NCBI GenBank assembly: GCA_964016885.1
Contig: OZ024741.1
Coordinates: 158,348,001 to 158,412,000 of the forward strand
Origin: Eledone cirrhosa
Taxonomy: Eukaryota
Reading direction: 5' to 3'
DNA length: 64,000 bases
Shown: positions 2 to 61,171 of the stretch, in pieces
How positions within the stretch are numbered: the first letter of the stretch is position 1
How the letters are laid out: every line of letters starts with the position of its first letter
The notes under the pieces: model-generated
Seen by the model: only the letters and a program-made list of their open reading frames with translations
Told to the model about the DNA's origin: nothing
The model's database searches: none
Program-made: the position numbers and the translations under genes

Positions 2-3000
2 ATGAGCAACACATCGTTACCAGCGTATTCTGGCGATGCTAAATTGTGGTTTGCCCAGCTAGATGTGTATTTTGCGGCCAACGGAGTACAGGCAGCACAG
101 CAAAAACTACACGTGCTAATCAGTGGAATTCCCGCTTCGCTAGCAACTACAGTAAAGGACATCATCACGGATCCTCCACAAGGCGCTTCCTATGAGTCTC
201 TGAAGTCAGAGGTACTGCGTAGGAACAGTAGGTCGTCTGAGAGTAGATTTCGTTCCTTATTAGAGGATGAAAATCTGGGGGACAGAACTCCTTCAGAGTT
301 TTTACGGCGTATCCAAGAACTCTGTGATGTTGCGCCTAAAGTCAGTTCCTTCGTAAAAAAAGTTATTCTTCTCCCATTTGCCAACCAATGTGCAAATCGT
401 ATTGGCGAATATGGTTGAAACCAGTTCGATAGAACAAATTGCTGCCTCTGCGGACAGAATTATGGAATTTTCTAGGGGACCTACCTCGGCTGATTCGGTC
501 ATTGCTTCTTCTATTCTTAAGAAACAGCCTGCCTCACCTAGTGAGGAAGCCATATTGAGAGCTATTGATGGGTTAACACGTCAAGTAGCTAAACTGTGTC
601 GTGATCGAGCGCCACCTTTTCTTCTAACCGACGTACGAACCCCCCAGCCAACAGTTCTTCTTTGTGTTGGTACCATGCGCGTTTCAGTGATAAGGCACAT
701 CATTGTATCAAGCCCTGTTCTTTTTGGGGCATCGGAAAACTAAGTTTGGAGAGTCTGGGCACGGCAGACCTCTCCCTTAACATTTCGGCTTGTCGTGCTT
801 TCTTCATCAGATACCGAGTCTCAAACAAATCATTCATGGTCGACACAGGATCAAGTTGTAGTATTTGGCCCTTACGATTCAGCTCTACCAAGCCAACTTT
901 TTCCGGTATTTCCTTGTATGCAGTGAACCAGTCTCCTATAAAAAAAAACTATGGACAGATATCTTTATAATTGGACCTAGCTTTGCGTCGAGATTTTAAA
1001 TGGATTTTCGTCATTGCCGACCTACGTCATCCTATTCTCGGTGCGGATTTCTTACACCACTATTCACTTTTGGTAGATGTCAGGAAACAGAAGCTTGTGG
1101 ATAATACCACATCCTTATCTATGCCTACTCGTAAATCTACTGCTGCTGCTGTCAGTCCATCGTTTTTTGTGTCTGCCGCTGGAAACTAGTTTCATGCACT
1201 CCTTACTTCGTTTCCTGAGTTAACGGATATTTCATTTAAACCTACCTAGGCAGCCCACTCGAGTCAACACTTCATTATAATGACTGGTCCACCTGTTTTC
1301 TCTCGTCCACGAAGGTTGGCTCCGGATAGACTAAAAAAAGCCCGAGACGAGTTTGAGCACATGCTCCAGCTCAGTCTAATACGACCTTCCACCAGCCCAT
1401 GGACATCTCCACTACACTTGGCTCGAAAGGGTGAGGCGGATTTTAGATTGGTAGGAGATTACCGAAGACTTAACGCTATCACCACACCTGAACCTACAGG
1501 ATTTTTCATCCGTTCTGCATGGATGCACAATATTTTCCAAAATTGATCTAGTACGTGCATACCAGCAGATACCCATGAATCCAGAGGATATACCAAAGAC
1601 AGCCGTGACCACCCGCTTTGGTTCATTTGAATTCCTGTCCATGCCTTTTGGCTTGCGGAATGCCTCTAGCACGTTCTAACGTTTTATCGATGAAGTCATG
1701 CGTGGATTGGATTTCGTGTTTGCTTATGTGGATGACCTCCTGATAGCCAGCGACACAGCTAAACATCATCAGCAACATGTATCTCAGTTATTTCAACGTC
1801 TTCAATCGTACCCGGTCAGAATCAACCCAGCTAAATGTGTGTTTGGTACAGCTTCACTGGAATTCCTAGGACATCTGATAGATTCAGAAGGCATTCGACC
1901 TCTGCCATCTAAGGTGGAAGTGATTGAGCGAATCGCACTCCTCACCTCATTGAGGCAGTTACGTCATTTCTTAGGATTAATCAACTTTTATCGTCGTTTC
2001 ATTCCTAACTGTGCGGACAAGTTGTTGCCCTTGACATAGTTTTTAAAGGCTGCGAAAAAGAAAGATGCTTCCATTTCACTTTCTGCCGATGCTTTGCAAT
2101 CTTTCAAATCCGTCAAGTCCGAAATAGCTAAAGTTTCCTTTCTGGGTCATCCTTTTGCGAACACGAGGCTATCCTTAATTGTCGATGCGTCCGATCATGC
2201 TGTCGGAGGAGTCTTGCAACATACAATCAACCACCAGTTTCAACCACTGACGTTTTTCTCACGCCAACTAAAATCAGCAGAGCAACGTTACAGTACTTTT
2301 GACAGAGAGCTTTTAGCAGTTTATCTTGCTGTGAGACACTTCCACCATCTTCTTGAAGGTCGGGAGTTCACGGTATTCACAGACCATAAACCATTCACAT
2401 TCGCTCTTCAATCTAAGTCCGACAGTTACTCTCCGAGGGCATTTGGATTTCATCTCCTAGTACACCAGTGACATTCGTCATATAGCTGAAGCTGCCAACG
2501 TACCCGCGGACGTACTGTCTCGACTCCCTGTGTGCTCACTTGCGTCTCCTGTACATATTGATTTGGTTGCCATTGCGACTGACCAACCTTCTTTGGATTC
2601 TCTGGATACTTCTTCTACCCAGTTTTCCTACTGTAAATTTGAATATTTACCTCTTCCGTCTACTGAAGAGAAAATTCTTTGCGACATTTCTACCGGCTCA
2701 CCCAGACCACTTGTTCCAGATTGTCATCACCGTACCATTTTTGATGTACTTCATTCCTTGTCGCATCCCGGCATAGCTGCCACGGTGAAGCTTATCATGG
2801 CCTGATTCTTATGGCCTAGCTTGCGTCGTTTAATCACTGGTTGGGCACGATCTTGTTTGCAGTGTCAGCTCTCTAAGGTTCATCGGCATGTTCGCGCTTC
2901 TCTTGGTAAATTCAGCCCACCGGACGCTCGTTTCCGTCACATTCACATGGATATTGTTGGTCCTTGGCCCGTTAGTCGTGGGTTCACATATATATTGACT

Positions 3001-3864
3001 TGTATCGATCGTTTCTCTAGGTGGTCTGAAGTCATACCCCTAGTGGACATAACAGCAGAGTCTGTTGCCCGAGCTTTCATTTCCAATTGGGTTGCTCGCT
3101 TTGGTGTTCCTTCTAAAATAACCACGGATCGAGGACGTCAGTTCGAGGCTTCCTTATTTCGTGAAATATCACAACTTTTGGGTGCTCATCGCATTCATAC
3201 GACCAGCTATCACCCAGCCTCCAACGGAATGGTGGAGAGGTTTCACAGACAGTTGAAAGCTGCACTCCGCGCTACTCCTGATTTGCAACATTGGACAGAA
3301 TTTTTGCCAATTGTGCTTCTGGGTTGTCGTTCTGCCGTTAAGACAGATTTGGGTTTCTCCTCAGCTGAACTTCTTTACGGTACCACCTTGACTCTTCCCG
3401 GTCAAATGCTAGCACCGGTTGATTCATCGCATCTTGATCCAACATCATATGTCACCAGGATTCGTTCTTACTTCTCGGATCTTCCACCAATGAACCCTCG
3501 TGACCAGTCTATTTCTTCTGCTGTTCCATCAGATATCTCTACGTGGACACACATTTTTATACGGAATGATTCCGTCAAGGGACTTCTTAAGTCACTCTAT
3601 AATGGACCTTTTAGTGTGCTTTCGCACACACCAACACATTTCACAGTGGCTGTCAATGGTCGAAAAGAGACAATATCCATTGACAGAGCAAAGAGGGATT
3701 TCTCTGAAAGTCTCATTACAATGCCTGATACACCTCATACATTCACTCCCACACCAACACCTTCACCTCCACCGCAAACACTACATACCACACAACCTTA
3801 TGTCACACGAGGTGGCAGAACAGTAAAATGGCCACGTAAATTGTCAAAAACTATATACATTTAA
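2..3864 (+). mobile_element. Ty3/Gypsy LTR retrotransposon gag-pol, degenerate (frameshifts and stops)
   Basis: Ordered fragments: gag (2-~740, WFAQLD...LGDRTPSEFL), aspartic protease (FMVDTGSS, ILGADFL), RT (PWTSPLH, DYRRLN, YVDD ~1725), RNase H (VDASD, YSTFDRELLA, TDHKP), integrase (H..SHPG, C..C, MDIVGP, TTDRGRQF, NGMVERFH). PR-RT-RH-IN order is Gypsy. The 5' LTR is outside the window. Confidence 0.95.
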
Positions 3865-5905: not shown

Positions 5906-6275
5906 AATTCCATATATGGTCAAAGTGATTGTCAAAAATCAGTAGTAATTCTGTGGTTGCAAATTAGTAGGGGAGATGGTGGCTAAACCTGCCAGTAGGA
6001 GAAAGAGGGGAGGGGGTGGAGTAGACCCAATCAAGCGTTGGTAGTGCCAGCTACAGCTGGGCATGAGGTCAAAGAAGATACAGGGGAGGGGGAGGAAGTC
6101 GGAACGGTAGGTAGAACAATGGTGGGTAGAAATATATAGGAAAGAAAAAATACTGAGAATGAAGAAAAGCAAATAAGTGTAAAGAAAAGTGTAAAGTAAA
6201 TTAAATTCTACGACCTAGGTCTCAGGCTATTGTTAGGCTAGAATAAAAATCACCTTACCGCTACTTACTGCCGCC

Positions 6276-7631
6276 TTGGACTTCGCCGAAACACTTGTGC
6301 CCATCACCGACCAGGAAAGAAAAATCATCCTCCACGCCAGGAAGACAGTCTTACTCTTTGACGACTCTAAATGGATAAAAAGAGCTCCCGACTCACCCTT
6401 CGACGTCAGCATGGGCGCCACGGATTCGGCGGAGGTCACAGATCTTATAGGATTATTCCTAATAGCCAAACTCACTGATATGTTTCCTGCATTCGGTGGT
6501 GGATTGTACCGTGATGATGGGCTCCTTACCCTTAAAGGGTACAAACCCAGTAGTACAGATCGGGTCCGGAAACAATTAATCAGATTCTTCCGCGACTGGG
6601 GATTTAAAATAACCCTACAAACGTCCCTGACCCGAGTAAACTTCCTGGACGTGACCCTCGACCTCGAAAACGACCTGTACTACCCATACAGGAAACCTAA
6701 TGACAATCTGCACTACATCCACCGCCGATCAAACCATCCTAGGAACATCACAAACAACCTGGTCAAAAACATCTCCCTCCGCATATCCCGTTTGTCAGCA
6801 AATGAGCGGATATTCGATGAACATGCGCCTTATTACAACCAGGCCCTCAAGCGGAGTGGTTTCCGGGAGGAAATATCCTACTGTCCAGCTCCCATTAGCG
6901 GAACCAGCAGGAGACACCGCCGCTCACGCAATGTAACATGGTTCAATCCTCCCCACAACGCAGAGGTGACAACTCCCATCGGGAAACTATTCTTTAGGCT
7001 CATTGAAAAACACTTCCCATTACAACACCGCTACCACAACATAATTAACAAAAATACCATCAAACTCTCTTACAGCACTACACCAAACTTCGCACAAAAC
7101 ATCGTCTCCTCTAACAACAAAAAACTCAACCCCGATGGCAGAAATAACCTAAATAGCAGTGGAGAACCGACCAGGAGGTGTAACTGCCCGGATAGATCTA
7201 TTTGCCCACTCGACAATAGATGCAGAGACCGTAATGTGATCTACCAGTGCAACGTGAGGACGGATACCTCCAACAAAGCCTATATAGGACTTACCGCATG
7301 TGACTTCAAGACCCGGCTATACCAACATAGACATACCTTCCGAAACCCGGCCCGGCGTCACGCCACTACACTTTCGGACCACATATGGGACCTCAAGGAC
7401 AACAACATCACCTATGATCTCACTTGGAGATTACTGTCCAGAGCCAATTCTTACACGGGAGGACGCCATCCGTGCAATTTATGCTCGGAGGAAACTTTAC
7501 AAATGCTGTTTTCGACGGACCAACTCCTAAACAAGAAAGATGAACTGGTTACTGCATGTAAACATAGATTGCGTAGGACTTACCTCGCCCTCAAACCCCA
7601 TAATGACCCGGGGGGGGGGGGGGTAGACTAG
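6276..7631 (+). CDS. PLE reverse transcriptase plus GIY-YIG endonuclease (N-terminally truncated, open frame)
   Basis: MGATDSAEVTDL, LYRDD, VNFLDVTL, SNHP, WFNPP; linker CNCPDRSICPL (CxCx5C); VIYQC...YIGLT...FKTRLYQH; CNLCSEE. Confidence 0.92.
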   Translation: MDFAETLVPITDQERKIILHARKTVLLFDDSKWIKRAPDSPFDVSMGATDSAEVTDLIGLFLIAKLTDMFPAFGGGLYRDDGLLTLKGYKPSSTDRVRKQLIRFFRDWGFKITLQTSLTRVNFLDVTLDLENDLYYPYRKPNDNLHYIHRRSNHPRNITNNLVKNISLRISRLSANERIFDEHAPYYNQALKRSGFREEISYCPAPISGTSRRHRRSRNVTWFNPPHNAEVTTPIGKLFFRLIEKHFPLQHRYHNIINKNTIKLSYSTTPNFAQNIVSSNNKKLNPDGRNNLNSSGEPTRRCNCPDRSICPLDNRCRDRNVIYQCNVRTDTSNKAYIGLTACDFKTRLYQHRHTFRNPARRHATTLSDHIWDLKDNNITYDLTWRLLSRANSYTGGRHPCNLCSEETLQMLFSTDQLLNKKDELVTACKHRLRRTYLALKPHNDPGGGGVD

Positions 7632-9615: not shown

Positions 9616-9782
9616 GTGATGCTAGTTCTCCGGAATGGTGACAATGATGTCCTCACTTTGAAGTTCAATGCTATTGGTAGCAACATCAGCAATTGGTTTA
9701 CAGCAGACAACCTAAAAGATAACCCATGGTCTGATCTAGAATTGAACAATGCAACATTCCAAATGGACGCCATAAATGATGA
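9616..9782 (+). CDS. Internal exon of an unnamed gene (globular domain, first part)
   Basis: ttttcag| ... GA|gtaagt. Phase 0 translation: VMLVLRNGDNDVLTLKFNAIGSNISNWFTADNLKDNPWSDLELNNATFQMDAIND. It resembles a recurrent uncharacterised marine-invertebrate domain (F.G.GS...WF...L..PW.DL), recalled from memory and not searched. Confidence 0.8.
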
Positions 9783-11067: not shown

Positions 11068-12207
11068 CATAAGAAATGATAATAATTCAGGTAACAACAA
11101 TAATGGTAATAACCAAGGTAACAGCAATAACCAAGGTGACAACAATAACCAAGGTAACAACAGTAATCTATGTAGTAACAATAACCTAGGCAAGAACAAC
11201 CAAAGCAACAACAATAACCAAAGCAGTAAAGGAGACCAAGAGAATAGAAACATGGTAGTTAAAGGAACCAAAGGACATAAAGGAAATAAGGGAGATAAGG
11301 GAAACAAAGGAGATATGGGACCCAAGGATAACAAGGGAGATAAGGGAAACAAGGGACCTAAGGGAAAGAATGAACATAAGGGAGATAAGGGACTCAAGGG
11401 AGATAAGGGAAACAATGGACATAAGGGAAACAAAGGCGATAAGAGACCCAAGGGAGATAAGGGAAACAAGGGACATAAGGGAAACAATGGACATAAGGGA
11501 GATAAGGGACTCAAGGGAGATAAGAGAAACAAGGGACATAAGGGAAACAAAGGAGATAAGGGACCCAAGGAACATAAGGGAAACAAGGGACATAAGGGAA
11601 ACAATGGACATAAGGGACTTAAGAGATACAATGGACATAGGGAATATAAGGGACTCAAGAGAGATAAGAGAAACAATGGATATAAGGGACATAAGCGACC
11701 TAAGGGAAACAAGGGAGATAAGGAACATAAGGGAAACAAGGGACATAAGGGAAACAAGGGACATAAAGGAAACAAAAGACATAAAGGACATAAGGGAAAC
11801 AAGGCAGATAAGGGAGAAAAGGGAAACATGGTTGATATAGAAAACAAGGGAGATATGGGAGAAAAGGGAAACAAGGGAGATATGGGAGAAAAGGGAAACT
11901 TGGTTGATATAGAAAACAAGGGAGAAAAGGGAAACTTGGTTGATATAGGAAACAAGGGAGATATGGGAGAAAAGGGAAACAAGGGAGATATGGGAGAAAA
12001 GGGAAACTTGGTTGATATAGAAAACAAGGGAGAAAAGGGAAACTTGGTTGATATAGGAAACAAGGGAGATATGGGAGAAAAGGGAAACTTGGTTGATATA
12101 GGAAACAAGGAAGATAATCACTGCATCAATAATGGCCAGGACAACAATAACCAAAACAACAACCAAAATGCTGAAGACAAAGAGCTGAGTCCAGATGAAT
12201 ACCAGAG
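11068..12207 (+). CDS. Symmetric (phase 2-2) 1140-nt exon with Asn-rich and Gly-X-Lys collagen-like repeats
   Basis: Polypyrimidine tract plus tag| acceptor at 11067 and AG|gtatta donor at 12207. The frame is open throughout and matches both flanking exons (11069 to the ATG at 11252 is 61 codons). Confidence 0.7.
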
Positions 12208-12507
12208 GTATTAATATTAATATTATTAATATCAATATTATTTTTATTGTTTAGCCCTAGGTCAGCAGTCCTATGTGATCAATATGTTGTTGTTGTTATT
12301 GTTTAACCCTAGGCCCTGTAGACCTGTGTGACCAATACATTGTTGTTGCTGTTTAGCCCTAGGTCAACAGTCCTATGTAATCAATATTCTGTTGTTTAGC
12401 CCTAGGTCAGGGTTTAAATGATGTTTTAAACAGTAATGATATAGCTAGTGATAACTACAACTGCTTTAAATCATACAATAATGTTCGTATTAAGTTTCTC
12501 TGGCACC

Positions 12508-13990
12508 ATCCATCACTCTCACTCTCATCCATCACTCTCACTCTCATCCATCACTCCTCCTCTCATCCATCACTCTCACTCTCATCCATCACTCTCACTC
12601 TCATCCATCACTCTCACTCTCATCCATCACTCTCACTCTCATCCATCACTCTCACTCTCATCCATCACTCTCACTCTCATCCATCACTCTCACTCTCATC
12701 CATCACTCCTCCTCTCATCCATCACTCTCACTCTCATCCATCACTCTCACTCTCATCCATCACTCTCACTCTCATCCATCACTCTCACTCTCATCCATCA
12801 CTCTCACTCTCATCCATCACTCCTCCTCTCATCCATCACTCTCACTCTCATCCATCACTCTCACTCTCATCCATCCCTCTCACTCTCATCCATCACTCCT
12901 CCTCTCATCCATCACTCTCACTCTCATCCATCACTCCTCCTCTCACTCTCACCCATCACTCCTCCTCTCACTCTCATCCATCACTCCTCCTCTCATCCAT
13001 CACTCCTCCTCTCACTCTCACCCATCACTCCTCCTCTCACTCACATCCATCACTCCTCCTCTCATCCATCTCTCACTCTCCTCCATCCCTCTCACTCTCC
13101 TCCATCACTCTCACTCTCCTCCATCACTCCTCCTCTCATCCATCACTCTCACTCTCATCCATCACTCCTCCTCTCATCCATCAGTCTCACTCTCATCCAT
13201 CACTCTCACTCTCATCCATCACTCTCACTCTCATCCATCAGTCTCACTCTCATCCATCACTCCTCCTCTCATCCATCACTCTCACTCTCCTCCATCACTC
13301 CTCCTCTCATCCATCACTCTCACTCTCATCCATCACTCCTCCTCTCATCCATCACTCTCACTCTCATCCATCACTCTCACTCTCATCCATCACTCCTCCT
13401 CTCATCCATCACTCTCACTCTCATCCATCACTCCTCCTCTCATCCATCAGTCTCACTCTCATCCATCCCTCACTCCTCCTCTCATCCATCACTCTCACTC
13501 TCATCCATCACTCCTCCTCTCATCCATCACTCTCACTCTCATCCATCACTCTCACTCTCATCCATCACTTCTCCTCTCATCCATCAGTCTCACTCTCATC
13601 CATCCCTCACTCCTCCTCTCATCCATCACTCTCACTCTCATCCATCACTCCTCCTCTCATCCATCACTCTCACTCTCATCCATCACTCCTCCTCTCATCC
13701 ATCACTCTCACTCTCATCCATCACTCCTCCTCTCATCCATCAGTCTCACTCTCATCCATCCCTCACTCCTCCTCTCATCCATCACTCTCACTCTCATCCA
13801 TCACTCCTCCTCTCATCCATCACTCTCACTCTCATCCATCACTCTCACTCTCATCCATCACTCCTCCTCTCATCCATCAGTCTCACTCTCATCCATCCCT
13901 CTCATCCATCAGTCTCACTCTCATCCATCCCTCACTCCTCCTCTCCTCCATCACTCCTCCTCTCCTCCATCACTCCTCCTCTCATCTGTC
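12508..13990. repeat. 19-bp minisatellite (TCATCCATCACTCTCACTC / TCATCCATCACTCCTCCTC)
   Basis: About 75 units with two interspersed variants; the + strand is almost free of G. Confidence 0.95.
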
Positions 13991-14106
13991 ACTCCTCCTC
14001 CCATCTATCGCTCACTTTCTCTTCCATCACCCTCTCTCTCATCAACTACTCTCTCTCTCTGTCATCAATAACTGACCTTCTCTATCACTCATTATTCACC
14101 TTTCCT

Positions 14107-14786: not shown

Positions 14787-14929
14787 TCGGTGCTCCTTTA
14801 GTATTTCTATGGGTGAATCCCACACTTGGCTTATAGTTTCAAATAAGAAAAATCCAAACTCAAATGCATCTGGCGATTATGTTATTCAGTATGTAGAGGA
14901 AGGTAAAATGGCTGATAATAATCCTGAAA
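14787..14929 (+). CDS. Internal exon of the same unnamed gene
   Basis: ttttcag|T CGG... RCSFSISMGESHTWLIVSNKKNPNSNASGDYVIQYVEEGKMADNNPE A|gtaaga; phase 2 in, phase 1 out. Confidence 0.8.
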
Positions 14930-15381: not shown

Positions 15382-15431
15382 ATTCATTAAAAAAAGCTGA
15401 GAGCATGACTATCTACATTAAACTTGACTGA
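15382..15431 (+). CDS. Terminal coding exon of the unnamed gene
   Basis: tttcag|AT, phase 1, reading (N)SLKKAESMTIYIKLD* with TGA at 15429-15431. Phase is compatible with the previous exon. Confidence 0.75.
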
Positions 15432-28335: not shown

Positions 28336-28413
28336 AATTGCCTTGTCTGACGAACGAATGAGGACGTTTCTTGTATTCGTCTTATTCGGGAAACCTCTGG
28401 TAATGAGGTAATT
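28336..28413 (+). ncRNA. Type I hammerhead ribozyme
   Basis: aattgccttgt CTGACGA acgaatgaggacg...cgtcttattcgg GAAA cc-tct-gg TA atgaggtaatt; 11-bp stem I including G-U pairs; GUA site. Confidence 0.82.
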
Positions 28414-28504
28414 ATATTATATACATATATTATATTATATTTATATTATATTATATACATATATTATATTATATACATATATATATATACATATACATAC
28501 ATAA

Positions 28505-30996
28505 CCTACAAATCTGGTGAGCACATAAGCCAGATTGACTTTTTACTAGTTAGGCAGCGGGACAGGCAGATAGTGTCTAATACCAAGGCATACCCTGGGG
28601 AAGAATGTACCCCACAGCATAGGTTAGTTGTTAGTGATATCTCAGTAAGCAAGAGATGGAATGAGACATATAGGAAGGTGTGGAGAAGAAAGGTCTGGAA
28701 GCTAAAAGACCTTTCACTAAAATACAAATTTAGGAAAGCCCTTCAAGATGTATATGACGAAAAAGAAGACGATTTAGAGACATATGACATAGATAATAAC
28801 TGGAATTTCCTATGTGACAACTTGCTACAGGCTACTGATGAAACTTGTGGCTGGAGCAGAGCTCCAACCAGACAGAGAGTGACCTGGTGGTGGAACAGCA
28901 CAGTAGATAAGGCTATTAGAGACAAAAGACTAGCATGGAAGGCTTGGAAAAAGAGTGGGAGTAGGGAAGAATATACAGCCACTAAGAGAGAAGCTAGACG
29001 TCAGGTGTACTTAGCACGCAGGGAGGCAGAGAGTAGGAGGTTTGCCAATGTTCTGCGACGGGAAGATCAGAGGCGTGCGGTGTTCCACATTGCAAGGCAG
29101 TGTGTCAATGCAAATCAGGATGTTGTTGGAGATAAATGTGTCCGGGATGATGCCGGTGTACTTAGTGTCACGAATGATCAGAAAAAGGAGGCCTGGAAAT
29201 GTCATTATGAGAGACTGATGAATGTGGAGAACAAATGGGAGAGAGAGAAATTACCCTTGGTAGATCCGACAAAGGGACCAGCTATTGAGATTGACGAATA
29301 TAGGGTCCAAGAGGCGATTAAGGAAATGAAAAATGGTAAGGCTGCCGGACCATCGGGAATAGTTGCTGAGATGCTGAAGGCATCAGGGGACGTAGGCACT
29401 AAACTGGTTGCACGCATCATCAATCAGGCTATATATGGTGGTGTCATACCCAAAGACTGGTGCAGCAGTATTCTCATAAATTGCTATAAAGGTAAAGGGG
29501 ATGCTTTGGAGAGGAGCAATTATAGGGGTATAAAACTGATAGATCAGGTTAGGAAAGTGGCAGAAAGGATTTTAGCACAACTAATTAGAGAAAGGGTCAA
29601 ACTAGATGAGATGCAGTTTGGTTTTGTGCCTGGGAAGAGTACAACAGATGCCCTCTTCTTGGTGAGACAATTGCAAGAGAGGTTCTTAGAGAAGAATAAG
29701 CCACTATACTTAGCCTTTGTTGACCTAGAGAAGGCCTTTGATAGGGTACCCCGATCTGTCATCTGGTGGTCCCTAAGGAAGCTAGGTGTTGAGGAATGGC
29801 TTGTGAGGACAGTGCAAACTTTGTACAGAAGTACTCTCAGTAAAGTCAGGGTAGGAATGGAGTTTAGTGAGGAATTCCAGATACAAGTAGGAGTACATCA
29901 GGGTTCGGTCCTCAGCCCGCTCTTGTTCATTATAGTCCTCCAAGCCATAACAGAGGAGTTTAAGACTGGCTGTCCGTGGGAACTTCTCTATGCTGACGAT
30001 CTGGTTCTTATAGCAGAATCAGTAGAGGAGCTAGAGAATAAATTCTGGCTATGGAAACAGCAGTTGGAAGCAAGAGGAGTGAGAGTGAATCTAGCTAAGA
30101 CAAAAGTGTTGATGAGTAGAAAAGAGGACAAAACCCTGATTCCGTCAGGGAAATGGCCATGTTCGATATGCAGAAAAGGAACTGGCATAAATTCTATAAA
30201 ATGCACACACTGCAGATCCTGGGTACACAAGAGATGTAGCGGGAAAGCAGGCAAACTAACAGGTAGGGAGAAATATGTATGCAGTAGATGTACAGGGAAA
30301 TTAGACAGTAGAAGTTGCATTGATAGACACATTTTTCAAATGCAGGAGGGCGCTATAGAAGTGGTGGATAGCTTCCGGTACCTAGGAGATCAGATTAGCA
30401 TGGGAGGAGGGTGTTCCGAGGCCATAGTATCTAGAATAAGGACGGGTTGGAAGAAGTTTAGGGAGTTGCTTCCTCTGTTGACGAAGAAGGGTTTCTCCCT
30501 GCGTATGAAAGGCCGGTTGTATGATGCCTGTGTGAGGAGCGCGATGCTGCATGGTAGTGAGACATGGGCAGCAACTGCAGAGGATATACAACGGCTGGAG
30601 AGAAATGAGGCAAGCATGCTCCGTTGGATGTACAGTGTAAATGTACGTGAACGACCCAGCTTAAATGTGTTGAGAGAGAAACTGTGTCTGAGAGGGATAG
30701 AATGTAGTGTACGGGAGAGGAGACTGAGGTGGTATGGACATGTGATGCACATGGAGGATGACCGATGGGTGAAGAAGTGCCAGGAATTGCCAGTTGAAGG
30801 AAGACGCGGTAGAGGTAGACCACGAAAAACATGGGCGGAGGTGGTGAGAACAGACCTCAGATCATTGAAGCTCACAGTGGAGATGACGAGGGACTGTGAC
30901 GAGTGGAGAGATGATGTGCTGAATAAGACCCGTCCCACTCTTGCAAGCAGGGAAAAGCGGACGTAAAATGATGATGATGATGATGATGATGATGAT
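28505..30996 (+). mobile_element. RTE LINE, 5'-truncated, with a 797-aa open ORF (end of APE, RT, PHD-like finger)
   Basis: NYRGIKL, QFGF, FVDLEKAFD, GVHQGSVLSP, YADD, C..C...C..C..WVH..C...C..C. The stop codon lies directly before an (ATG)n tail. Confidence 0.95.
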
Positions 30997-42357: not shown

Positions 42358-45300
42358 ATCATCATCATCGTTTAACGTCCATGTTCCATGCTTGCATGGG
42401 TTTGGACGGGAGTTTTCCCACTTGAGGCAAGAGTGGTTGTCTTGCTCGCATAGGACTGTCTGGCGGGTTTTCTACAGCTGGATGCCCTTCCTAACACCAA
42501 CCACATTTACAGTGTGGGGCTGGGAGGTTTTTACAGTGTTGCCTACACGGCCACATTACAGCTTGGACTGTCTGGCGGGTTTTCTACAGCTGGATGCCCT
42601 TCCTAACACCAACCACATTTACAGTGTGGGACTGGGAGGTTTTTACCGTGTTGCCTACATGGCCACATTACAGCGTGGACTGTGTGTTTTTTGTCGTGAC
42701 ACCTACACAATCTCATTTGTTTCGGCCTGGATGTTGTGGCACCAACATAACTTTACATTGAAAGGGGCGGTGTGGATGGGGTGGGGGTGGTGGGACGGGG
42801 GTGTATTTTGTTAGAGATGCCTACTGACTGTAGTAGGTTTTACTTTGTATTTAGGTAAGGCGGGTCTTCTCTATTACTGAGTACCGCCAAAGGTCTCGGT
42901 CCAGTGACATTGTCATGGAGAGGTGTAAGTGTGTGAGGTCGGAATTTATCAGCTCGTCCCAGGTTTTTCTGGGTCTGCCTACTCCGTGGCTACTATCTAT
43001 CTTTATTGCCCTGCACTTTGTTATACAGCTGTCGTCTTTCATGCGCATCACGTGACCATACCAACGTAGCCTTCTCTCGAGTAAACAACATCTGATCCCT
43101 CTTATATTTAATTTTTTCCTTAGTTCGTTTATGCTTTGCCGTTCACGTATATTACTATTACACATCCAGCGGAGCATGCAAGCTTCGTTCCTCTCTAGTC
43201 TGCGTATATCCTCTGCACACAATGCCCAGGTCTCACTGCCATGCAACATTGCTGTTCGTATGCAGGCATCATACAACCTGCCTTTCATTTTTAGGGAGAA
43301 CCCTTTAGCGGCTAATAATGGTATAAGCTCTCTGAACTTTTTCCATCCAGTTCTGACTCTAGCTACTGTACTTTCGGAGCACCCTCCCCCACTGCTGATT
43401 TTGTCACCCAGGTAACGGAAGCTGTCCACTATTTCTATAGAACCCTCTGCGCAATTGAAAGAGCTAGTATTTTGTGGGCACTTGCTGCTACTTATTGCAC
43501 CAGAGCACCGGCCACATGTAAAATCTGTGTTCTTAGTTAGCTTACCTGTGATCCCACTACATCTTTTATGCACCCATACTTTGCATCTGGGACATAAAAT
43601 GGAGTTTCTACCTACGCCTTTCCTACACACTGAGCATGGCCATTTCCCGGAAGGGACCGGCGCCTTATTTTCTTTCCTACAAACTAGAACTTTAGTCTTA
43701 GCCAGGTTAATTTTAAGGCCTTTTGATTCTAGGCCGTGCTTCCATGTTTGGAATTTCTTCTCTAGCTCGGCCATTGATTCAGCTATGAGCGTTAGATCAT
43801 CTGCGTATAGGAGTTCCCATGGGCAGCCGGTCTTGAACTCCTCTGTTATAGCCTGAAGGGCAATAATAAATAGTAGGGGGCTAAGAACAGAGCCCTGATG
43901 GACACCAACTTTTACGCTAAACTCTTCACTATATTCGTTGTTAATTCTAACCTTGCTGACTGTTTCTTTATACATGGCTTGTATAGCTCTCACAAGCCAT
44001 TCGTCAACACCTAGTTTTCTAAGAGCCCACCAGATAATGGAACGGGGGACTCTGTCGAAGGCTTTCTCCAAGTCGACAAAAGCTAAGTATAGGAGTTTAC
44101 TTTTAGCTAGGTACTTCTCCTGTAGTTGTCGTACAATTAAAAGAGCGTCTGTGGTACTTTTGCCTGACACAAACCCGAACTGCATTTCATCTAGATCAAT
44201 TCTCTCTCTGATTAGTTGCACTATTACTTTTTCCGTGACCTTCATGACCTGGTCGATTAATTTAATGCCTCTATAGTTACACCTATCTAGGGCGTCTCCT
44301 TTACCCTTGTAACAGTTAACGATGATGCTGCTACGCCAGTCCTTCGGAACAACCCCATTCTGTATGACTTGGTTTACTATCCGGGTGACCATGGTGTGTC
44401 CGACCGTACCAGAGGCTTTCAGCATCTCAGCAACTATTTCCGAAGGCCCAGCCGCCTTACCCGTCTTCATATCTTTGATTGCCTTACTTATTATACTACC
44501 TTCGACTAACACTGCTGGTCCCTCTATTGGGTCGATGTGGGGGAGACTGTCTTTCTCCCATTTATTCTCCTCATTTAGTAGCCTTTCGTAGTGACACTTC
44601 CAAGCTACCTTCTTATCAGCGTCAGTGATGGCAAGTACGCCATCATCGTTAAGTACACACTTCTCCCCGACAATATCACGGTTTTCCTTGACACATTGCC
44701 TAGCAATCCTGAACACCTCATGTTTTTGGTCCTCGCGTTGTAGAACATGCTTGAACTTTCTTTCCTCTGCTTCCCTTCTTGCGAATTACACTTGTCTCCT
44801 AGCTTCCCTCCTGGCCACTTGATAGTCTTCTCTACTTCCCCCATCCCGCCATGCTTTCCAAGCCTGCTTTTTGGCCTTGATTGACCCCTCCACCTTACTG
44901 TTCCACCATCATGTTACTCTCCTCCTGCCTACAGGCCTGCTCCAGCCACAGACTTCGTCTGCCGCCATCAGCAAGTTTGCTTTCAGGAATTCCCACTGTT
45001 CCTCTACCTTGTACGACTCTAATTGCTCTTCCTTACTGTCGAAAGCATCAAGTAATATGCTTTGAAATTTATTTCTGGCTGTGGGATCCTTTAGCTTCCA
45101 TATTTTTCTCCTGAGGATAGACCTCTTCTGCTGTCTAGTACGTCTCGTCCTGACTATGAGGTCGCTAATTATCAGTCTATGTTGGGAGGTGCATTCTTCA
45201 TGGGGGAGGGATTTAGTGTTTACAACAGACACTCTGTCACGTCTTCTGGTAAGGATATAATCTACCTGGCTGGTATGTTCCCCTGATCTGTAGGTGATCA

Positions 45301-46615
45301 AGTGATTGTCTCGTTTTTTGAAGTTAGTGTTACAGATAGTTAGGTTGTTTGCATCACAGAATTCCAGGATTCTGGAGCCTTCCTCGTTTCTAGTACCAAA
45401 CCCATAGCCTCCGTGGATTCCGTCATAGCCGTCACAATGTTGTCCAACGTGGCCATTTAGGTCGCCAGCAATAATTATATAGTGACTGTCGGTTATTTGG
45501 GAGGTAGTGAGCATCAGTGTCTCATAGAATCTGTCTTTTATAGCACCAGGCAGTCCGGATTGGGGCGCGTATGCAGATATTACTGTCACAGTAGTTCTGT
45601 TTAGAACAAGTCTTATTTTAATTATTCTGTCATTCACTCTATTTACATCTATTATCTTATCCACCCATTTTTCTGCTAACATGATTCCTACCCCCCCCCC
45701 GCCCCCCCCAATCCCATTGTCATTTCCCACCCAGAAAAGCTTATAGCAACGTTTTTTACCCACAATGAATCTAGCAGACCCCCCCCCCCCACCTGGTCTC
45801 TTGGATACAGCAAACATCAACCTCCTTACGTTCAAGCAATTCTACAACCTCGTTAGAGCGGCCTTTTAAGGTGCCTACGTTCATGGTACCAACTCTGAAG
45901 TTTTGGATTGTGTTTGGAGGATGGGGCGCAGGGATGGGTGAGGGGGGTGGGGTTGGGGTTGTGTTGGCCATCCGCGGCCGAAACAAAGAGGGGGGGGGGC
46001 CTTGCCCTTTCGTCCAGCAGCATGAGGTGAATTTGTCGTTATCTTTGGCATTGTCATCGAGTGTCCAGATTCTTCAGACTCTCCAGAAATTCCTTAGTCC
46101 ATCTATCATATCGAAAAGCAGCCAGTAGTGATAGCATAGGCCGTTGACTTTTGATTGGTCCAAATAGTAAAGGTGGAGAGTGGGGGCGGGAGGGAGGGAT
46201 ATGGAGTAGTTAGCAAAGAGAAGATTAATTTAGAACAAGCGTGGAGAAGATTAATTTAGAACAGTGAGACGGAATTATAGGATAGCAACGATTGTAGATA
46301 TATATGGATGAATGAACCAAGTTTTAGGAGACAAGAAGAAAATGTTCTATAATACATTACATTTTCGTAGAATCGACTGACAATTTAATAAGAGTTGACA
46401 AATTCTGAGGTTTTGTCCTTCGTAACATTCTTATTTATATTAGGAAGTGAGAGAGCGAGAGGGACGTATATGTTAGAGAGAGTGGGAGTAATAGCGATTT
46501 TGATGGGCGAGAGAATCTATTTTTATGAATCCTGGAAAATTTTTTTTTTCTTTTTCGGCCAAAATGGTAGCAAAGAGAAGATTAATTTAGAACAAGCGTG
46601 GAGAAGATTAATTTT
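42358..46615 (-). mobile_element. Near full-length RTE LINE in the last DHX8 intron, inactivated (5' boundary uncertain)
   Basis: APE, RT and PHD-like finger. Nonsense codons at ~44909 and ~44786 and a homopolymer frameshift at ~45780. A ~111-bp tandem duplication lies in the 3' UTR; (GAT)n tail. Confidence 0.92.
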
Positions 46616-51357: not shown

Positions 51358-54300
51358 TCATCATCATCATCATCATCAACGTTTAACGTCCGTGTTCCAC
51401 GCTTGCATGGGTTTGGACGGGGGTAGTCCCACTTGAGGCAAGAGTAATTGTCTTGCTCGCATAGGACTGTCTGGCAGGTTTTCTACAGTTGGATGCCCTT
51501 CCTAACACCAACCACATTTACAGTGTGGGTCTGGGAGGTTTTTACCGTGTTGCCTACACGGCCACATTACAGCGTGGACTGTGTGTTTTTTTGTCGTGAC
51601 ACCTACACGATCTCATTTGTTTCGGCCTCGATGGCGCGGCACCAACATAACTTTACATAGAACGGGGTGGTGTGGATGGGGTGGGGGTGGTGGTGGTGGG
51701 ACGGGGTGTATTTTGTTAGAGATGCCTACTGGCTGGAGTAGGTTTTACTATATATTTAGGTAAGGCGGGTCTTCTCTGTTACTGAGTACCGCCAAAGGTC
51801 TCGGTCCAGTGACATTGTCTTGGAGAGGTGTAAGTGTGTGATGTCGGAGTTTATCAGCTCGTCCCAGGTTTTTCTAGGTCTGCCTATTCCGTGACTACCG
51901 TCTATCTTTATTGCCCTGCACTTTGTTATACAGCTATCGACTTTCATGCGCATCACGTGTCCATACCAACGTAGCCTTCTCTCGAGTAAACAACATCTGA
52001 TCCCTCTTATCTCTAATTTTTTCCTTAGTTCGTTTATGCTTTGCCGTTCACGTATATTACTGTTATACATCCAGCGGAGCATGCAAGCTTCGTTCCTCTC
52101 TAGTCTGCGTATATCCTCTGCACACAATGCCCAGGTCTCACTGCCATGCAGCATTGCTGTTCGTATGCAGGCATCGTACAACCTGCCTTTCATTTTTAGG
52201 GAGAACCCTTTAGCAGCTAATAGTGGTATAAGCTCTCTGAACTTTTTCCAACCAGTTCTGACTCTAGCTACAGTACTTTCAGAGCACCCTCCCCCACTGC
52301 TGATTTTATCGCCCAGGTAACGGAAGCTGTCCACTATTTCTATAGAACCCTCTGCGCAATTGAAAGAGTTAGTATTTTGTGGGCACTTGCTGCTACTTAT
52401 TGCACCAGAGCACCGGCCACATGTAAAATCTATGTTCTTAGTTAGCTTACCTGTGATCCCACTACATCTTTTATGCACCCATACTTTGCATTTAGGACAT
52501 AAAATGGAGTTTCTACCTACGCCTTTCCTACACACCAAGCACGACCATTTCCCAGAAGGGACCGCCGCCTTGTTTTCTTTCCTACAAACTAGTACTTTGG
52601 TCTTAGCCAGGTTAATTTTAAGTCCTTTTGACTCTAGGCCGTGCTTCCATGTTTGGAATTTCTTCTCTAGCTCGGCCATTGATTCCGCTATGAGTGTCAG
52701 GTCGTCTGCGTATAGGAGTTCCCATGGGCAGCCTGTCTTGAACTCCTCTGTTATAGCCTGAAGGGCAATAATAAATAGTAGTGGGCTGAGAACAGAGCCC
52801 TGATGGACGCCAACTTTTACGCTAAACTCTTCACTATATTCATTGTTAATTCTAACCTTGCTGACTGTTTCTTTATACATGGCTTGTATAGCCCTCACAA
52901 GCCATTCGTCAACGCCTAGTTTTCTAAGAGCCCACCAGATAATGGAGCGGGGGACTCTGTCGAAGGCTTTCTCCAAGTCGACAAAAGCTAAGTAGAGGGG
53001 TTTACCTTTAGCTAGGTACTTCTCCTGTAGTTGTCGTACTATGAAAAGAGCGTCTGTGGTACTTTTGCCTGACACAAACCCGAACTGCATTTCATCTAGG
53101 TCAATTCTCTCTCTGATTAGTTGCGCTATTACTTTTTCCGTGACCTTCATGACCTGGTCGATTAATTTAATGCCTCTATAGTTACTCCTATCTAGGGCGT
53201 CTCCTTTACCCTTATAACAGTTAACGATGATGCTGCTATGCCAGTCCTTCGGAACAACCCCATTCTGTACGACTTGGTTAACTATGCGGGTGACCATGGT
53301 GTGTCCCACCGTGCCAGATGCCTTCAGCATCTCAGCAACTATTTCCGAAGGCCCAGCCGCCTTACCCGTCTTCATATCCTTGATTGCCTTACTTATTATA
53401 CTCCCCTCGACTAACACTGCTGGTCCCTCTATTGGGTCGATATGGGGGAGACTGTCTTTCTCCCATTTATTCTCCTCATTTAGTAGCCTTTCATAGTGAC
53501 ACTTCCAAGCTACCTTCTTATCAGCGTCGGTGATGGCAAGTGTGCCATCGTCGTTTAGTACACACTTCTCCCCGACAATATCACGGTTTTCCTTGACGCA
53601 TTGCCTAGCAATCCTGAACACCTCACGTTTTTGGTCATCGCGTTGTAGAACATGCTTGAACTTTCTTTCCTCAGCTTCCCTTCTTGCTAAGTACACTTGT
53701 CTCCTAGCTTCCCTCCTGGCCACTTGATAGTCTTCTCTACTTCCCCCATCCCGCCATACTTTCCAAGCCTGCTTTTTGGCCTTAATTGACCCCTCCACCT
53801 TACTGTTCCACCACCATGTTACTCTCCTCCTGCCTACAGGCCTGCTCCAGCCACAGACTTCGTCTGTCGCCAACAGCAGGTTTGCTTTCAGAAATTCCCA
53901 CTCTCCCTCTATATTGTCCGACTCTAAATGTTCTTCCTTACTGTCGAAAGCATCAAGTAATATGCTTTGAAATTTATTCCTGGCTGTGGGGTCCTTTAGC
54001 TTCCATATTTTTCTCCTGAGGATAGTCCTCTTCTGCTGTCGAGTACGTCTCGTCCTGACTATGAGGTCGCTAATTATCAGTCTATGTTGGGAGGTGCATT
54101 CTTCATGGGGGAGGGATTTAGTGTTTACAACAGACACTCTGTCACGTCTTCTGGTAAGGATATAATCTACCTGGCTTGTGTGTTCCCCGGATCTATAGGT
54201 GATCAGGTGATTGTCACGTTTTTTGAAGTTAGTGTTACAGATAGTTAGGTTATTTGCATCACAGAATTCCAGGATTCTGGAGCCTTCCTCATTTCTAGTA

Positions 54301-54900
54301 CCAAACCCATAGCCTCCATGGATTTCGTCGTAGCCGTCACAATGTTGTCCAACGTGACCATTTAGGTCGCCTGCAATAACTATATAGTCACTGTCGGTTA
54401 TTTGGGAGGCAGCGAGCATCAGTGTCTCATAGAATCTGTCTTTTATAGTGCCGGGCAGTCCGGATTGGGGTGCGTACGCAGATATTACTGTCACCGTAGT
54501 TCTATTGAGGACAAGTCGTATTTTAATTATTCTGTCGTTCACTCTATTTACGTCTATTATCTTATCTGCCCACTTTTCTGCTACCATGATTCCTACTCCA
54601 CCCAGCCCATCGTCGTTTCCCACCCAGAAAAGCTTATAACATCGTTTTTTACCCTCAATGAACCTAGCAGACCCACCCCTCCACCTGGTCTCTTGAATAC
54701 AACAAACATCGACCTCCTTACGTTCAAGCATTTCTACAACCTCGTTAGCGCGACCCTTTAGGGTGCCTACATTTATGGTACCAACTCTGAAGTTTTGGAT
54801 TGCGTTTGGGGGGTGGGGGGCGGGGGGCGATGGGGTTATGTTAGCTGTCCGCGGTCGAAACAATGAGGAGTGCTCGCATTCTCGTCCAAGAGGTGAATTT
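51358..54900 (-). mobile_element. RTE LINE with an uninterrupted APE-RT ORF (51756-54920, 1054 aa), truncated in the 5' UTR
   Basis: NVGTL, IQETRW, YAP, GDLNGH, VDYIL, SQH; RT with YADD. Closely related to the copy at 42358. Confidence 0.96.
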
Positions 54901-54931
54901 ATAAAAAAAAAAGGAAACAAAACTGTTGTAC

Positions 54932-55128
54932 CTGTCCATTATACCCAACATTTGTTTTCTGACATCTTGAGCTCGCTTTAAAGTTCGAATTTGGACAAAG
55001 TTTTCATAGCACCAAGGACTGGAAAATTTATTATTTCTCCATGAATTGTAAACAGCCAGCAGAGTTAAATGGTCACCTTCAGGCTGGTGGAATTTGGCCT
55101 TGCGTTGATCTGCAAGGGCTTGTTTGTC
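54932..55128 (-). CDS. DHX8: DHX8 exon (197 nt)
   Basis: [30 protein letters not shown]...QMLGIMD; AG/GT boundaries. Confidence 0.95.
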
Positions 55129-55431
55129 CTGGAAAATAAGGTCAGTTTTAATAATCAATGGAATTGCAAGATATTAAAAAGAAAAAGGTATGTGTGTAAA
55201 ACATTACCTCAAAAAGGACCCCATGATCAATATGAAGTCTATTTTTAGGCCCCACAAGGCTAACCCTTGCTTTAGCAGGGGAAAATGGTCTGAAAATGCT
55301 TATCGTATAACATTTTAAAATAAACTGTTTTATACTGTAGAAACTGGGCAGTTTAAGGTGATTTGGTATGAAAAGGGTTACACCCTATGTCCTACAGAGG
55401 ACGGAATGATGAAATATATACCATAACTAAC

Positions 55432-55560
55432 CTTTGGTCGATAGAATACATTCTGTACGGACAACATTGATACAATTGTTAAGATCTCATCACTGCAAGA
55501 TAAGTGGACTGACATAATCAACATCTTGGACAACATGGGCTCCAGGGGGAATTCAGCCAT
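55432..55560 (-). CDS. DHX8: DHX8 exon (129 nt)
   Basis: [18 protein letters not shown]...VQNVFYRPK (HA2 region). Confidence 0.95.
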
Positions 55561-56399
55561 CTGTAAATGGAGAAATCACATCAATATAGAATAAACATCA
55601 ACTTTTTCTCTTTAGAAATTGATCAATTAAAACATCAACATCATTATTTTTGTGCCCGCTTTGTCATGCTGGACAAGATTTTTTGAGGCAGTTTTACTGT
55701 GGCCTTCACTTCACAATACCTTCATTCCAGGTGTTTCTTGAGCAAATGTCATTACCATAGTTGACCCAAGATGTGTGAGTGAAATTGAGTAAATGGAAGC
55801 TTGTTGGATGGACTGTACCTCTAATACAAAGAGCCCAGCTTTTTCATACTGAATCTAACTGAGAACTACATTAAGGGTACATATGCTTATGGAATACTCA
55901 GCCATTAATTTAATGAATAGGCCTTCCCATTAAAAGAACAAAAGGAAAACTCATCATTGACACCAAAGGAGAAACATTTTATCAGGTTGTACCTAATTCT
56001 TTTCACAATCACTCCATATCTATCTACAATCTCAAATCCTTATTTCTCACACTCATTACCTCATACTTCATACAGTCTTCTTATAATACATAGTAACTAT
56101 ATCAGTTGATGTAAAGTTTAGCAGTTTCATTACCATATTTTTAATGAAAGACACTGCCTATAATTTTCAAATTAGTTTGAAAATAATCAAGAATTTGGAG
56201 GGATTTAGTAATATAACTAACTCTCTCTTTATTAAGTTGGTGTTTGGAATATAATTTAACAAAGGCAGGTTTTTAGATAAACATAAACACTTTAAAATAA
56301 ATAGCTTTGTATCATAGAACCAGGCGTGGTTTGATATGAAAGGGGCTAAAATGTTGACACCTCCAAAGTGTACAATAAAAGATGATGGTAGCAACTTAC

Positions 56400-56693
56400 C
56401 CTGCGACCGAGTCTAGTCAGCAAGCCTTCATCATCGAGTGCACTCAATGCATGAAGCTGTTCCATAGCTGATATTAAAGTCTGCATGGGTGGTGCATCCA
56501 TGAAGTCAAAGGAGAGGAGATCATTAATACCCATGGCCTTCAAGGACAATACTGTACTGGCCAAGTTTGTACGCTGGATCTCAGGGACATTTGTAGGAAG
56601 CATCTCATCTCGATACGCCCGCTCGGTGTAGAGTCGATAGCACTTGCCTGGACCTGTGCGACCAGCACGTCCAGCACGCTGTTTGGCTTGAGC
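56400..56693 (-). CDS. DHX8: DHX8 exon (294 nt, helicase motif VI)
   Basis: [31 protein letters not shown]...[13 protein letters not shown]. Confidence 0.96.
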
Positions 56694-57640: not shown

Positions 57641-57698
57641 GACAGGCAAATACCAAGGAAGGCTCTAATTGAACTACATACACACAAATAAAAGATCA

Positions 57699-57902
<204 letters not shown>

Positions 57903-58009
57903 TCAAACAACATACAACACAGATATTACTACTGTGTGCATTGTATTTTTGTTAATTTTTCTACAGAAATAATTCAATTAATATTTAGAAATTCAGACAA
58001 TAAACAATG

Positions 58010-58345
58010 ATGCATTCTCTGATGAATGTGTAATAGTAGTGTACAGGATTGATAAAGCATCAAACGTCAATGAACTGAGAGAGAAATTAGGCCTAAGAGG
58101 GGTCAGAAGCAATGTGCAGGAGAAGACACGATGGTAGTATGGACATATCATATATATGGAAGATAACAGCTGTATAAAAAGGTGCAAAGTAAGTAAAGTT
58201 GTTGGAAACTATGAAAGAGGAAAATCTAGGAAAACTTGGGATCATGTGGTAAAAGGTGACTTCATGCAATTAAACCTCTCAAAGGAAATGATGATGTAAG
58301 TTCAAGTTCTCTGGTGATATACCATACCTTAGAAGACCCACCTTT
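58010..58345 (+). mobile_element. Old RTE 3' fragment
   Basis: ELREKLGLRG..., GKSRKTWD remnants. Confidence 0.7.
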
Positions 58346-59254: not shown

Positions 59255-59497
59255 CTACAAAGTAAGACCAATAAATATTTATTCTTCCATGACATAGAAA
59301 CTTTGAGAACAGTTAATAAAGCTTCATAAACAAACATTCTTATTGGCCCAGATCTTCAAAGTAACTGGTTATTCTTGATAACTAGGTGCCCTGGAGTATT
59401 TAGAATTAAGTGTCCTTTCTCTGAGTAACAACAGAATACCTGCAGTAAAAACTTTCAAGCTGTTAGTCCATTTTTAACAACCATTTGACCTAGACAG

Positions 59498-60751: not shown

Positions 60752-61171
<420 letters not shown>

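What the first reader, a model, noticed from the sequence alone, without database searches (positions are those of the whole stretch)
11068..12207. 380-codon Asn-rich and Gly-X-Lys collagen-like symmetric exon splitting a globular domain
Seen: the exons 9616-9782, 14787-14929 and 15382-15431 join in frame. Between them lies a 1140-nt phase 2-2 exon with good splice signals, so it can be included or skipped without a frameshift. It encodes (GNNNNQ)-type repeats, then about 60 mostly G-X-K triplets (X = N, D, H, P, L; about 11 GHK), then GEKGNLVDI repeats. The triplets are proline-poor and strongly basic. Known: molluscan nacrein has a Gly-X-Asn tract inserted inside its carbonic anhydrase domain, and free GHK binds copper. 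Inference: a lineage-specific structural, adhesive, matrix or metal-binding protein with an optional repeat insert.
Basis: partly seen in the sequence, partly recalled or inferred. Interest (0 to 1): 0.75.

Follow-up and report, generated by a model that had tools for sequence, protein, structure and literature searches.

The report
Rewritten repeat loop in octopus protein
An octopus-type gene splices a 380-amino-acid lysine-rich repeat exon into the middle of a globular domain of a likely secreted protein; the Octopus bimaculoides counterpart has an insert at the same spot built from a different repeat, so it is likely a flexible, cross-linkable loop rather than collagen.

Summary
The exon is real. 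Spliced contigs of one run join 9782>11068 and 12207>14787. It lies in a six-exon gene for a predicted 673-aa protein: signal-like N-terminus, PAN/apple domain, then an unnamed invertebrate domain (weakly fibrinogen-like) that the insert splits at a family-wide phase-2 intron. The Octopus bimaculoides orthologue (XP_052830469.1) has a 309-aa insert at the same site with a homologous Asn-rich start, but its core is a Lys/Gly/Asp/Cys repeat with no Gly-X-Y register and no GHK. Here 13 of 63 triplets have lost Gly by single-base changes, and the longest clean run is 8. So the site, length, ~20% Lys and hydrophilicity are conserved, while the triplet pattern is a lineage-specific 9-bp minisatellite. 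Skipping was not seen (one contig; 4 of 4 orthologue records include the insert). Both orthologues also lost a family-wide Cys pair and sit on a very long branch. Best reading: a regularly included, likely disordered Lys-rich tether in a fast-evolving extracellular protein, like nacrein or sea-star bindin in design. Tissue and function are untested. The scan had not noted this gene on other DNA.

The parts
9616..9782 (+). Third coding exon, N-terminal half of the unnamed domain; phase 0 to phase 2, same phases in 14 paralogous exons. Two earlier coding exons lie outside the window: G000:C2:158332443-158332814 (ATG, signal-like stretch, PAN domain) and C2:158337859-158338010 (152 nt, start of the domain)
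   Evidence: spliced on both sides in X4; upstream exons (PAN-exon junction inferred from frame, orthologue and contig length)
11068..12207 (+). 1140-nt phase 2-2 insert exon (protein aa 231-610), single copy in the genome search
11069..11263 (+). Asn-rich start of the insert with a Cys (LC); homologous to the orthologue's
   Evidence: 27 of 64 identical; local score 116, reached by 0 of 2000 shuffles; BLASTP 18/35
11264..11830 (+). 63 units of a 9-bp minisatellite read as G-X-K; basic (net +44); 13 Gly-breaking units; no homology to the orthologue's core
   Evidence: core score reached by 463 of 500 shuffles
11831..12109 (+). GEKGNLVDI/GDMGEK repeats, includes a young 108-bp repeat (98% matches)
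12110..12207 (+). Asn-rich end of the insert with one Cys; similarity to the orthologue's end not above shuffles
   Evidence: 421 of 2000 shuffles reach the score
14787..14929 (+). Exon, C-terminal half of the domain; begins with a Cys shared with the orthologue, lacks the family Cys pair
   Evidence: joined to 12207 in X4
15382..15431 (+). Last coding exon, final strand of the domain and stop; first AATAAA at 15786
   Evidence: junction 14929>15382 inferred from frame, family profile and contig length, not read directly

Best explanation
The exon is spliced in and encodes a likely disordered, lysine-rich loop of 380 residues that hangs out of the C-terminal domain of a likely secreted PAN-domain protein, and would act as a flexible, cross-linkable tether rather than a collagen helix. 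Shown: inclusion in RNA-type contigs, gene structure, position at an ancestral phase-2 intron, an orthologous insert in O. bimaculoides with the same site, similar length (309 aa), the same Lys share (0.20 vs 0.21) and a homologous Asn-rich start, and an unrelated repeat core. Inferred: (1) an ancestral octopod exon arose in that intron; (2) its centre has since been rewritten in each lineage by in-frame minisatellite slippage, with selection on frame, length and Lys/polar composition but not on the triplet; (3) the two halves of the domain still close around the loop; (4) the shared Cys at the start of the insert and the shared Cys just after it pin the base of the loop or link chains, replacing the family Cys pair that both orthologues lost; (5) PAN and the remodelled domain bind a surface or partner while the Lys-rich chain binds or is cross-linked into an extracellular coat, gel or glue (basic and His-rich here, near-neutral and Cys-rich in Octopus).
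For: Inclusion junctions. Orthology: best BLASTP hit among 178 family proteins, four exons of this locus hit back, clade 100/100. Insert 227-535 in 4 of 4 O. bimaculoides records. Composition: G+K+N+D+E 0.75 vs 0.69, hydrophobic 0.11 vs 0.07. N-flank 42% identical, like the folded parts (46% and 56%), core unrelated. Gly decay: 13 breaking vs 1 synonymous change at Gly codons, all 13 in different contexts; G>A at Gly-breaking sites 10-11 of 126 vs 8 of 54 at synonymous Lys sites, p 0.18-0.29. The skip-join matches the family profile in one piece, E 3.7e-25. AlphaFold of the orthologue: halves mostly pLDDT 75-94 and 52-92, insert under 50 without secondary structure; one structural match spans both halves (Angptl3 domain, Z 6.5, rmsd 4.3, 156 aligned). 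Strongest hydrophobic stretch at aa 14-28. Precedents: nacrein repeat replaced by a D/E repeat in oyster (PMC4066178, passages); bindin repeat exon conserved in length, variable in repeats, with Gly/Lys-rich tracts (PMC4063459, passages).
Against: No tissue, protein or binding data; steps 3-5 are inference. Only two species compared. Net charge is not conserved (+32 vs +2), so a conserved polycation role is unlikely. The Gly test is weak: A sites mutate less than G sites in this array, units are not independent, and the point estimate (odds about 0.5) allows mild constraint. Low pLDDT in the insert is expected anyway because the alignment has no depth there, and the aligner misplaced one short strand into the insert (seen in A3; same marker in A4). 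The long branch and Cys loss also fit relaxed selection. RNA evidence is one sample of one study at contig depth 4-12, kind not on record. No signal-peptide predictor was run; a type II anchor is possible.
Confidence: 0.55

Rival explanations
1. Tolerated passenger: the insert has no function of its own; a surface loop in a relaxed paralogue was filled by repeat slippage in a repeat-prone genome, and only frame is kept.
For: Core changes look neutral; many 9-bp GGN-led minisatellites give Gly-X-Y frames in this genome; stem branch 2.55 vs median end branch 0.32; family Cys pair lost (150 of 160 hits keep it); low contig depth in X4.
Against: N-flank as conserved as the folded domains; similar length and identical Lys share reached from unrelated repeats; splice signals and frame kept in two lineages whose folded parts are only about 50% identical.
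Confidence: 0.2
2. In this lineage the core forms an interrupted, salt-bridge-stabilised collagen triple helix, trimerised through the fibrinogen-like domain, a ficolin-like design with the stalk inside the head.
For: PF01391 E 2.1e-26, above cut-off; 72 of 80 Gly in one register, 17 KGD and 3 KGE; five runs of 6 or more triplets, the working definition in PMC11923368 (section 17 read), which also reports KGD/KGE bridges compensating for interruptions (passages).
Against: 13 of 63 Gly replaced, 11 by Arg or Glu; longest run 8 and Gly share 0.78, lower than in all 13 other PF01391 loci examined (0.83-1.00, runs 18-157); two collagen-type exons in the same genome show 33/34 and 22/22 Gly, 14-15% Pro and mixed Gly codons, against 2% Pro and GGA in 64 of 65 here; net +44; the orthologue has no register (Gly 18/11/10 over three frames; no Pfam hit).
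Confidence: 0.1
3. A regulated cassette exon: skipping gives a compact PAN plus intact domain, inclusion gives a long charged form, switched by tissue.
For: Symmetric phase 2-2; skip-join is in frame and scores better on the family profile (76 vs 60 bits); the donor GAG|GTATTA is further from consensus than its neighbours.
Against: Symmetry is forced for any exon gained in a phase-2 intron; the only X4 contig over the upstream exon enters the insert at min_share 1; 4 of 4 orthologue records, including RefSeq isoforms X1 and X2, include it. Contigs drop rare forms, so this is not exclusion.
Confidence: 0.08
4. A precursor cut after Lys or at KR sites to release GHK copper-binding tripeptides or cationic antimicrobial pieces.
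For: 11 GHK, 7 KR sites and one R-x-K-R in the core; GHK is thought to be released from collagen or SPARC by proteolysis (PMC7503498, passages).
Against: 0 GHK in the orthologue; the KR sites arise automatically when GGA after a Lys codon mutates to AGA; GHK binds Cu with its free N-terminal amine (PMC7503498), absent in the intact chain.
Confidence: 0.05

Closest known systems
Octopus bimaculoides XP_052830469.1 / A0A0L8IDZ1 / XP_014773361.1 (automatic names 'clkA', 'Apple domain-containing', 'GATA zinc finger domain-containing 14-like')
   Same: Orthologue: same N-terminus, PAN, split domain (46-56% identity), insert at the same site with homologous Asn-rich start, 21% Lys, same Cys changes.
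   Different: Core is KGKGKGDCKDEEKDKEKC-type, near neutral, Cys-rich, no Gly-X-Y, no GHK; 309 vs 380 aa.
Unnamed signal-PAN-domain proteins of octopods, amphioxus, corals and echinoderms (e.g. O. sinensis LOC115226398; 597 representatives at E<=0.001)
   Same: Architecture, exon phases and domain profile.
   Different: 167 of 216 domain hits span the junction in one piece, none with more than 78 extra residues; 150 of 160 keep a Cys pair lost here.
Nacrein and nacrein-like proteins (PMC4066178, passages read)
   Same: A low-complexity repeat inserted inside a globular domain of a mollusc extracellular protein; the repeat type is swapped between species.
   Different: No carbonic anhydrase domain; basic, not acidic or Asn-type core; no link to mineral shown.
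Sea-star bindin (PMC4063459, passages read)
   Same: One large repeat exon between conserved parts, length conserved and repeats variable, with Gly/Lys-rich 'collagen-like' tracts; fast evolving.
   Different: No sequence relation tested; bindin's repeats lie between domains, not inside one; no gonad expression shown here.
Ficolins and other collagen plus fibrinogen-domain proteins (recalled; PDB chains)
   Same: Gly-X-Y-patterned segment together with a domain that weakly resembles the fibrinogen C-terminal fold.
   Different: In ficolins the collagen stalk precedes an intact domain; here the repeat is inside it, degenerate and not conserved.

Membership tests
Collagen / collagen-like triple-helix proteins | Gly-X-Y pattern recognised by PF01391; runs of 6 or more triplets | tested here: met
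   E 2.1e-26; five runs of 6-8 triplets
Collagen / collagen-like triple-helix proteins | Gly kept at every third residue under selection | tested here: not met
   50 of 63; 13 breaking vs 1 synonymous change; G>A rate not distinguishable from synonymous sites, though the test is weak
Collagen / collagen-like triple-helix proteins | Register conserved in orthologues | tested here: not met
   orthologue has no register and no Pfam hit; one orthologue only
Collagen / collagen-like triple-helix proteins | Stabilising Pro/Hyp or KGD/KGE salt bridges | tested here: inconclusive
   2% Pro; 17 KGD and 3 KGE but net +44
Collagen / collagen-like triple-helix proteins | Forms a triple helix in solution | not testable with these tools
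   needs CD or SAXS
Nacrein | Alpha-carbonic anhydrase domain | tested here: not met
   host domain belongs to another family
Nacrein | Repeat inserted within the globular domain | tested here: met
PAN/apple domain proteins | PAN fold and core Cys pattern | tested here: met
   four core Cys shared with the orthologue; PAN_1 E 0.0036 below cut-off; orthologue model Z 8.7, rmsd 2.1, 76 aligned to HGF N domain; family model Z 10.1
Fibrinogen-related domain (FReD) | Fibrinogen C-terminal fold | tested here: inconclusive
   Z 4.7-6.5 to Angptl3 and intelectin, tied with TLDc Z 5.0-5.5 in the family model; a coral member carries Fibrinogen_C positions 2-53 directly before the domain; the domain was not folded alone
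Fibrinogen-related domain (FReD) | Calcium and acetyl-ligand site, trimer formation | not tested
   no site mapping done; the family Cys pair next to the insert is lost
Alternatively spliced cassette exon | Inclusion form exists | tested here: met
Alternatively spliced cassette exon | Skip form exists | tested here: inconclusive
   not seen in one sample's contigs nor in 4 orthologue records; contigs drop rare forms

The most novel reading that the evidence does not exclude
An octopod-specific glue or coat protein, possibly reproductive like bindin, in which a lectin-like domain was rebuilt around a hypervariable exon whose cross-linking chemistry is swapped between lineages: Cys disulfides in Octopus, His/Lys metal or oxidative cross-links here, giving species-specific materials from one gene.
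Probability: 0.12. Interest if true: 0.7.

Novelty: new variant of a known kind. Interest (0 to 1): 0.42.

Why it matters
It is a clean two-species case in which a 300-400-residue insert inside a folded domain is kept while its repeat core is wholly replaced, showing that a strong Pfam collagen hit (E 2e-26) can be a passing minisatellite pattern. It also flags an unnamed, widespread invertebrate domain family (597 representatives) with one octopod clade that changed sharply (long branch, Cys swap, insert), a testable candidate for a cephalopod extracellular material. The orthologue stands in databases only under misleading automatic names.

Tried and rejected
Intronic minisatellite artefact: rejected by spliced contigs and the orthologue. 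Open frame as evidence: rejected by controls. Paralogous copies of the insert: the own-genome search gave the exon itself and 48 weak hits to one stop-ridden satellite. Paralogues with an insert: in 4 of 8 regions fetched the next exon follows after 0.56-1.09 kb, too short for it; in the other 4 the next exon was not found. Word-index searches with single exons found nothing; the orthologue came from the HMMER search. No RNA holder is listed by record; X4 is taken as RNA from its spliced contigs. Sequence searches of the PDB gave nothing significant; fold searches named no clear match for the C-terminal domain, and it was not folded alone. A three-copy complex prediction of aa 66-185 returned no verdict (score 0.00); it is no evidence either way. 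Atlas searches with homologues returned mostly PAN-type clusters. Paper searches (listings only) found nothing on this gene or on four of the orthologue's accessions; gene identifiers were not searched, and supplements and subscription journals were not seen. PMC4500399 (abstract only) and PMC11703226 (passages) were looked at as analogies and not used.

Full report
Observation. The insert has an Asn-rich start, 63 triplets from a 9-bp unit (50 Gly-first, 54 Lys-third, 11 GHK, 5 Pro, net +44), GEKGNLVDI-type repeats and an Asn-rich end. The open frame by itself proves little: about 1.2 stops are expected under neutral change, and the intronic 19-bp array next door is stop-free in all three sense frames.

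It is spliced. Four coded runs hold the exon. X1-X3 read through the flanking introns. X4 contigs stop at 11068 and 12207, and their loose ends are the end of exon 9616-9782 and the start of exon 14787; so X4 is taken as RNA. Over exon 9616-9782 X4 has one contig, which enters the insert; no skip form appears at min_share 1. This is one sample of one study, depth 4-12, tissue unknown, and contigs drop rare forms. One SNP inside the exon (11246, R60G) and no indels were listed, with fragmentary cover of the repeat.

The gene. The upstream loose end maps to a 152-nt exon 10 kb before the window (G000:C2:158337859-158338010); 5 kb further lies an exon with ATG, a hydrophobic stretch and a PAN core (C2:158332443-158332814). 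The predicted protein has 673 aa with the insert at 231-610. The junctions PAN>next and 14929>15382 are inferred from frame, orthologue and contig lengths. The genome is a 3.0-Gb assembly; the closest proteins are from octopods.

The host domain. Exon 9616-9782 has 14 paralogous exons in the genome search, all with a phase-0 start and a phase-2 donor candidate, so the insert sits in an ancestral intron and had to be symmetric. The family is unnamed, matched no Pfam model over this domain, and occurs in octopods, amphioxus, corals and echinoderms. The skip-join matches its profile in one piece (E 3.7e-25). Of 216 domain hits in 178 proteins, 167 span the junction in one piece, with at most 78 extra residues. 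In 4 of 8 paralogous regions the intron is 0.56-1.09 kb; in the other 4 the next exon was not found. A family model (pLDDT 81) puts the site in a loop between strands; PAN matches clearly (Z 10.1), the C-terminal domain only weakly, to fibrinogen-type domains and TLDc (Z 4.7-5.5).

The orthologue decides the reading. P0072, O. bimaculoides XP_052830469.1, is the best hit, hits four exons of this locus in return and forms a 100/100 clade with it (31 rows; one of 30 listed homologues dropped out). It has an insert at the same site in 4 of 4 records, 309 aa in P0072. Folded parts are 46% and 56% identical; the Asn-rich start 42% (0 of 2000 shuffles reach it); the end is not above shuffles (421 of 2000); the core is unrelated (463 of 500). 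Its core is a Lys/Gly/Asp/Glu/Cys repeat with no Gly register, no Pfam hit and no GHK, net +2 over the insert. Shared are Lys share (0.20 vs 0.21), polar share and scarcity of hydrophobic residues. Both proteins lack the Cys pair that 150 of 160 family hits keep just after the site, both have a Cys early in the insert and one just after it, and their stem branch is 2.55 against a median end branch of 0.32. AlphaFold of the orthologue folds both halves and leaves 225-534 almost wholly under pLDDT 50, and one match spans both halves (Angptl3 domain, Z 6.5, rmsd 4.3, 156 aligned); the alignment had no depth in the insert and misplaced one short strand, so this is only supportive.

Collagen or not. 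For: PF01391 E 2.1e-26, five runs of 6-8 triplets, 17 KGD and 3 KGE, motifs that stabilise interrupted helices (PMC11923368, passages and section 17). Against: 13 of 63 Gly lost, nearly all by single-base changes, in 13 different contexts, against 1 synonymous change; G>A at Gly-breaking sites 10-11 of 126 vs 8 of 54 at synonymous sites (p 0.18-0.29, a weak test that allows mild constraint). Among 13 of the 25 other PF01391 loci fetched, every one has a higher Gly share and a longer run; two collagen-type exons have 97-100% Gly, 14-15% Pro and mixed codons, while several others are single-codon 9-bp minisatellites like this one.

Mechanism. Shown: inclusion, gene structure, shared site, turnover of the core. 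Inferred: secretion; disorder; domain closure with a Cys staple; a Lys-rich chain that tethers or is cross-linked into an extracellular coat, gel or glue. Rivals are a functionless passenger (0.2), an interrupted triple helix (0.1), a regulated cassette (0.08) and a GHK or cationic-peptide precursor (0.05; GHK uses its free N-terminal amine, PMC7503498, passages).

Comparison and novelty. It works like nacrein in design (repeat inside a domain, swapped between species; PMC4066178, passages) and like sea-star bindin (length-conserved repeat exon with Gly/Lys tracts; PMC4063459, passages), but is filed under neither. The ficolin comparison is recalled. Seven paper searches, read as listings, found nothing on this gene; supplements were not seen. 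Unchecked notes of this scan describe other repeat-expanded exons in the same genome, which supplied the passenger rival and lower the surprise. Verdict: real, a new variant of a known kind, interest 0.42.

Noticed in passing
G000:C5:15979785-15987088 (-), loci L079, L083, L084, L087, L088: Two open frames (1362 and 413 aa) of almost pure GHH/GYH triplets, both ending in the same short non-repeat tail; possibly His/Tyr/Gly-rich structural proteins.
   Followed up: no
G000:C12:7035623-7041346 (+) and C20:8911443-8924769 (-): Very long PF01391-positive open frames: 1008 aa of GED/GEA triplets on C12; 3493 and 1439 aa on C20.
   Followed up: no
G000:C3:62.25-62.74 Mb and C27:8.19-8.24 Mb (L002, L004, L006, L007, L009, L010; L012-L014): Tandem clusters of the same unnamed domain family; the C3 copies differ mostly at the exon's 3' end, next to the site of the insert.
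   Followed up: partly
window 54841-61171 (-): Exons of a DEAH-box RNA helicase (HA2_N hit; PRP22/DHX8-like by recalled motifs), converging on the gene studied.
   Followed up: no
window 357-3864 (+), 6237-7631 (+), 28351-30966 (+), 42851-46073 (-), 51756-54938 (-): An LTR-type retroelement (RT, integrase), a Penelope-like frame (label recalled, no Pfam hit) and several LINE copies with endonuclease, RT and PHD finger.
   Followed up: no
window 12507-14059: 19-bp intronic minisatellite, 82 copies, stop-free in all three sense frames; a trap for ORF-based exon calls.
   Followed up: partly
P0044 (1211 aa, amphioxus) and P0002-P0004: Proteins with several tandem copies of the unnamed domain, or with it fused to D8C, C-type lectin, F5/8 or EGF modules.
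   Followed up: no
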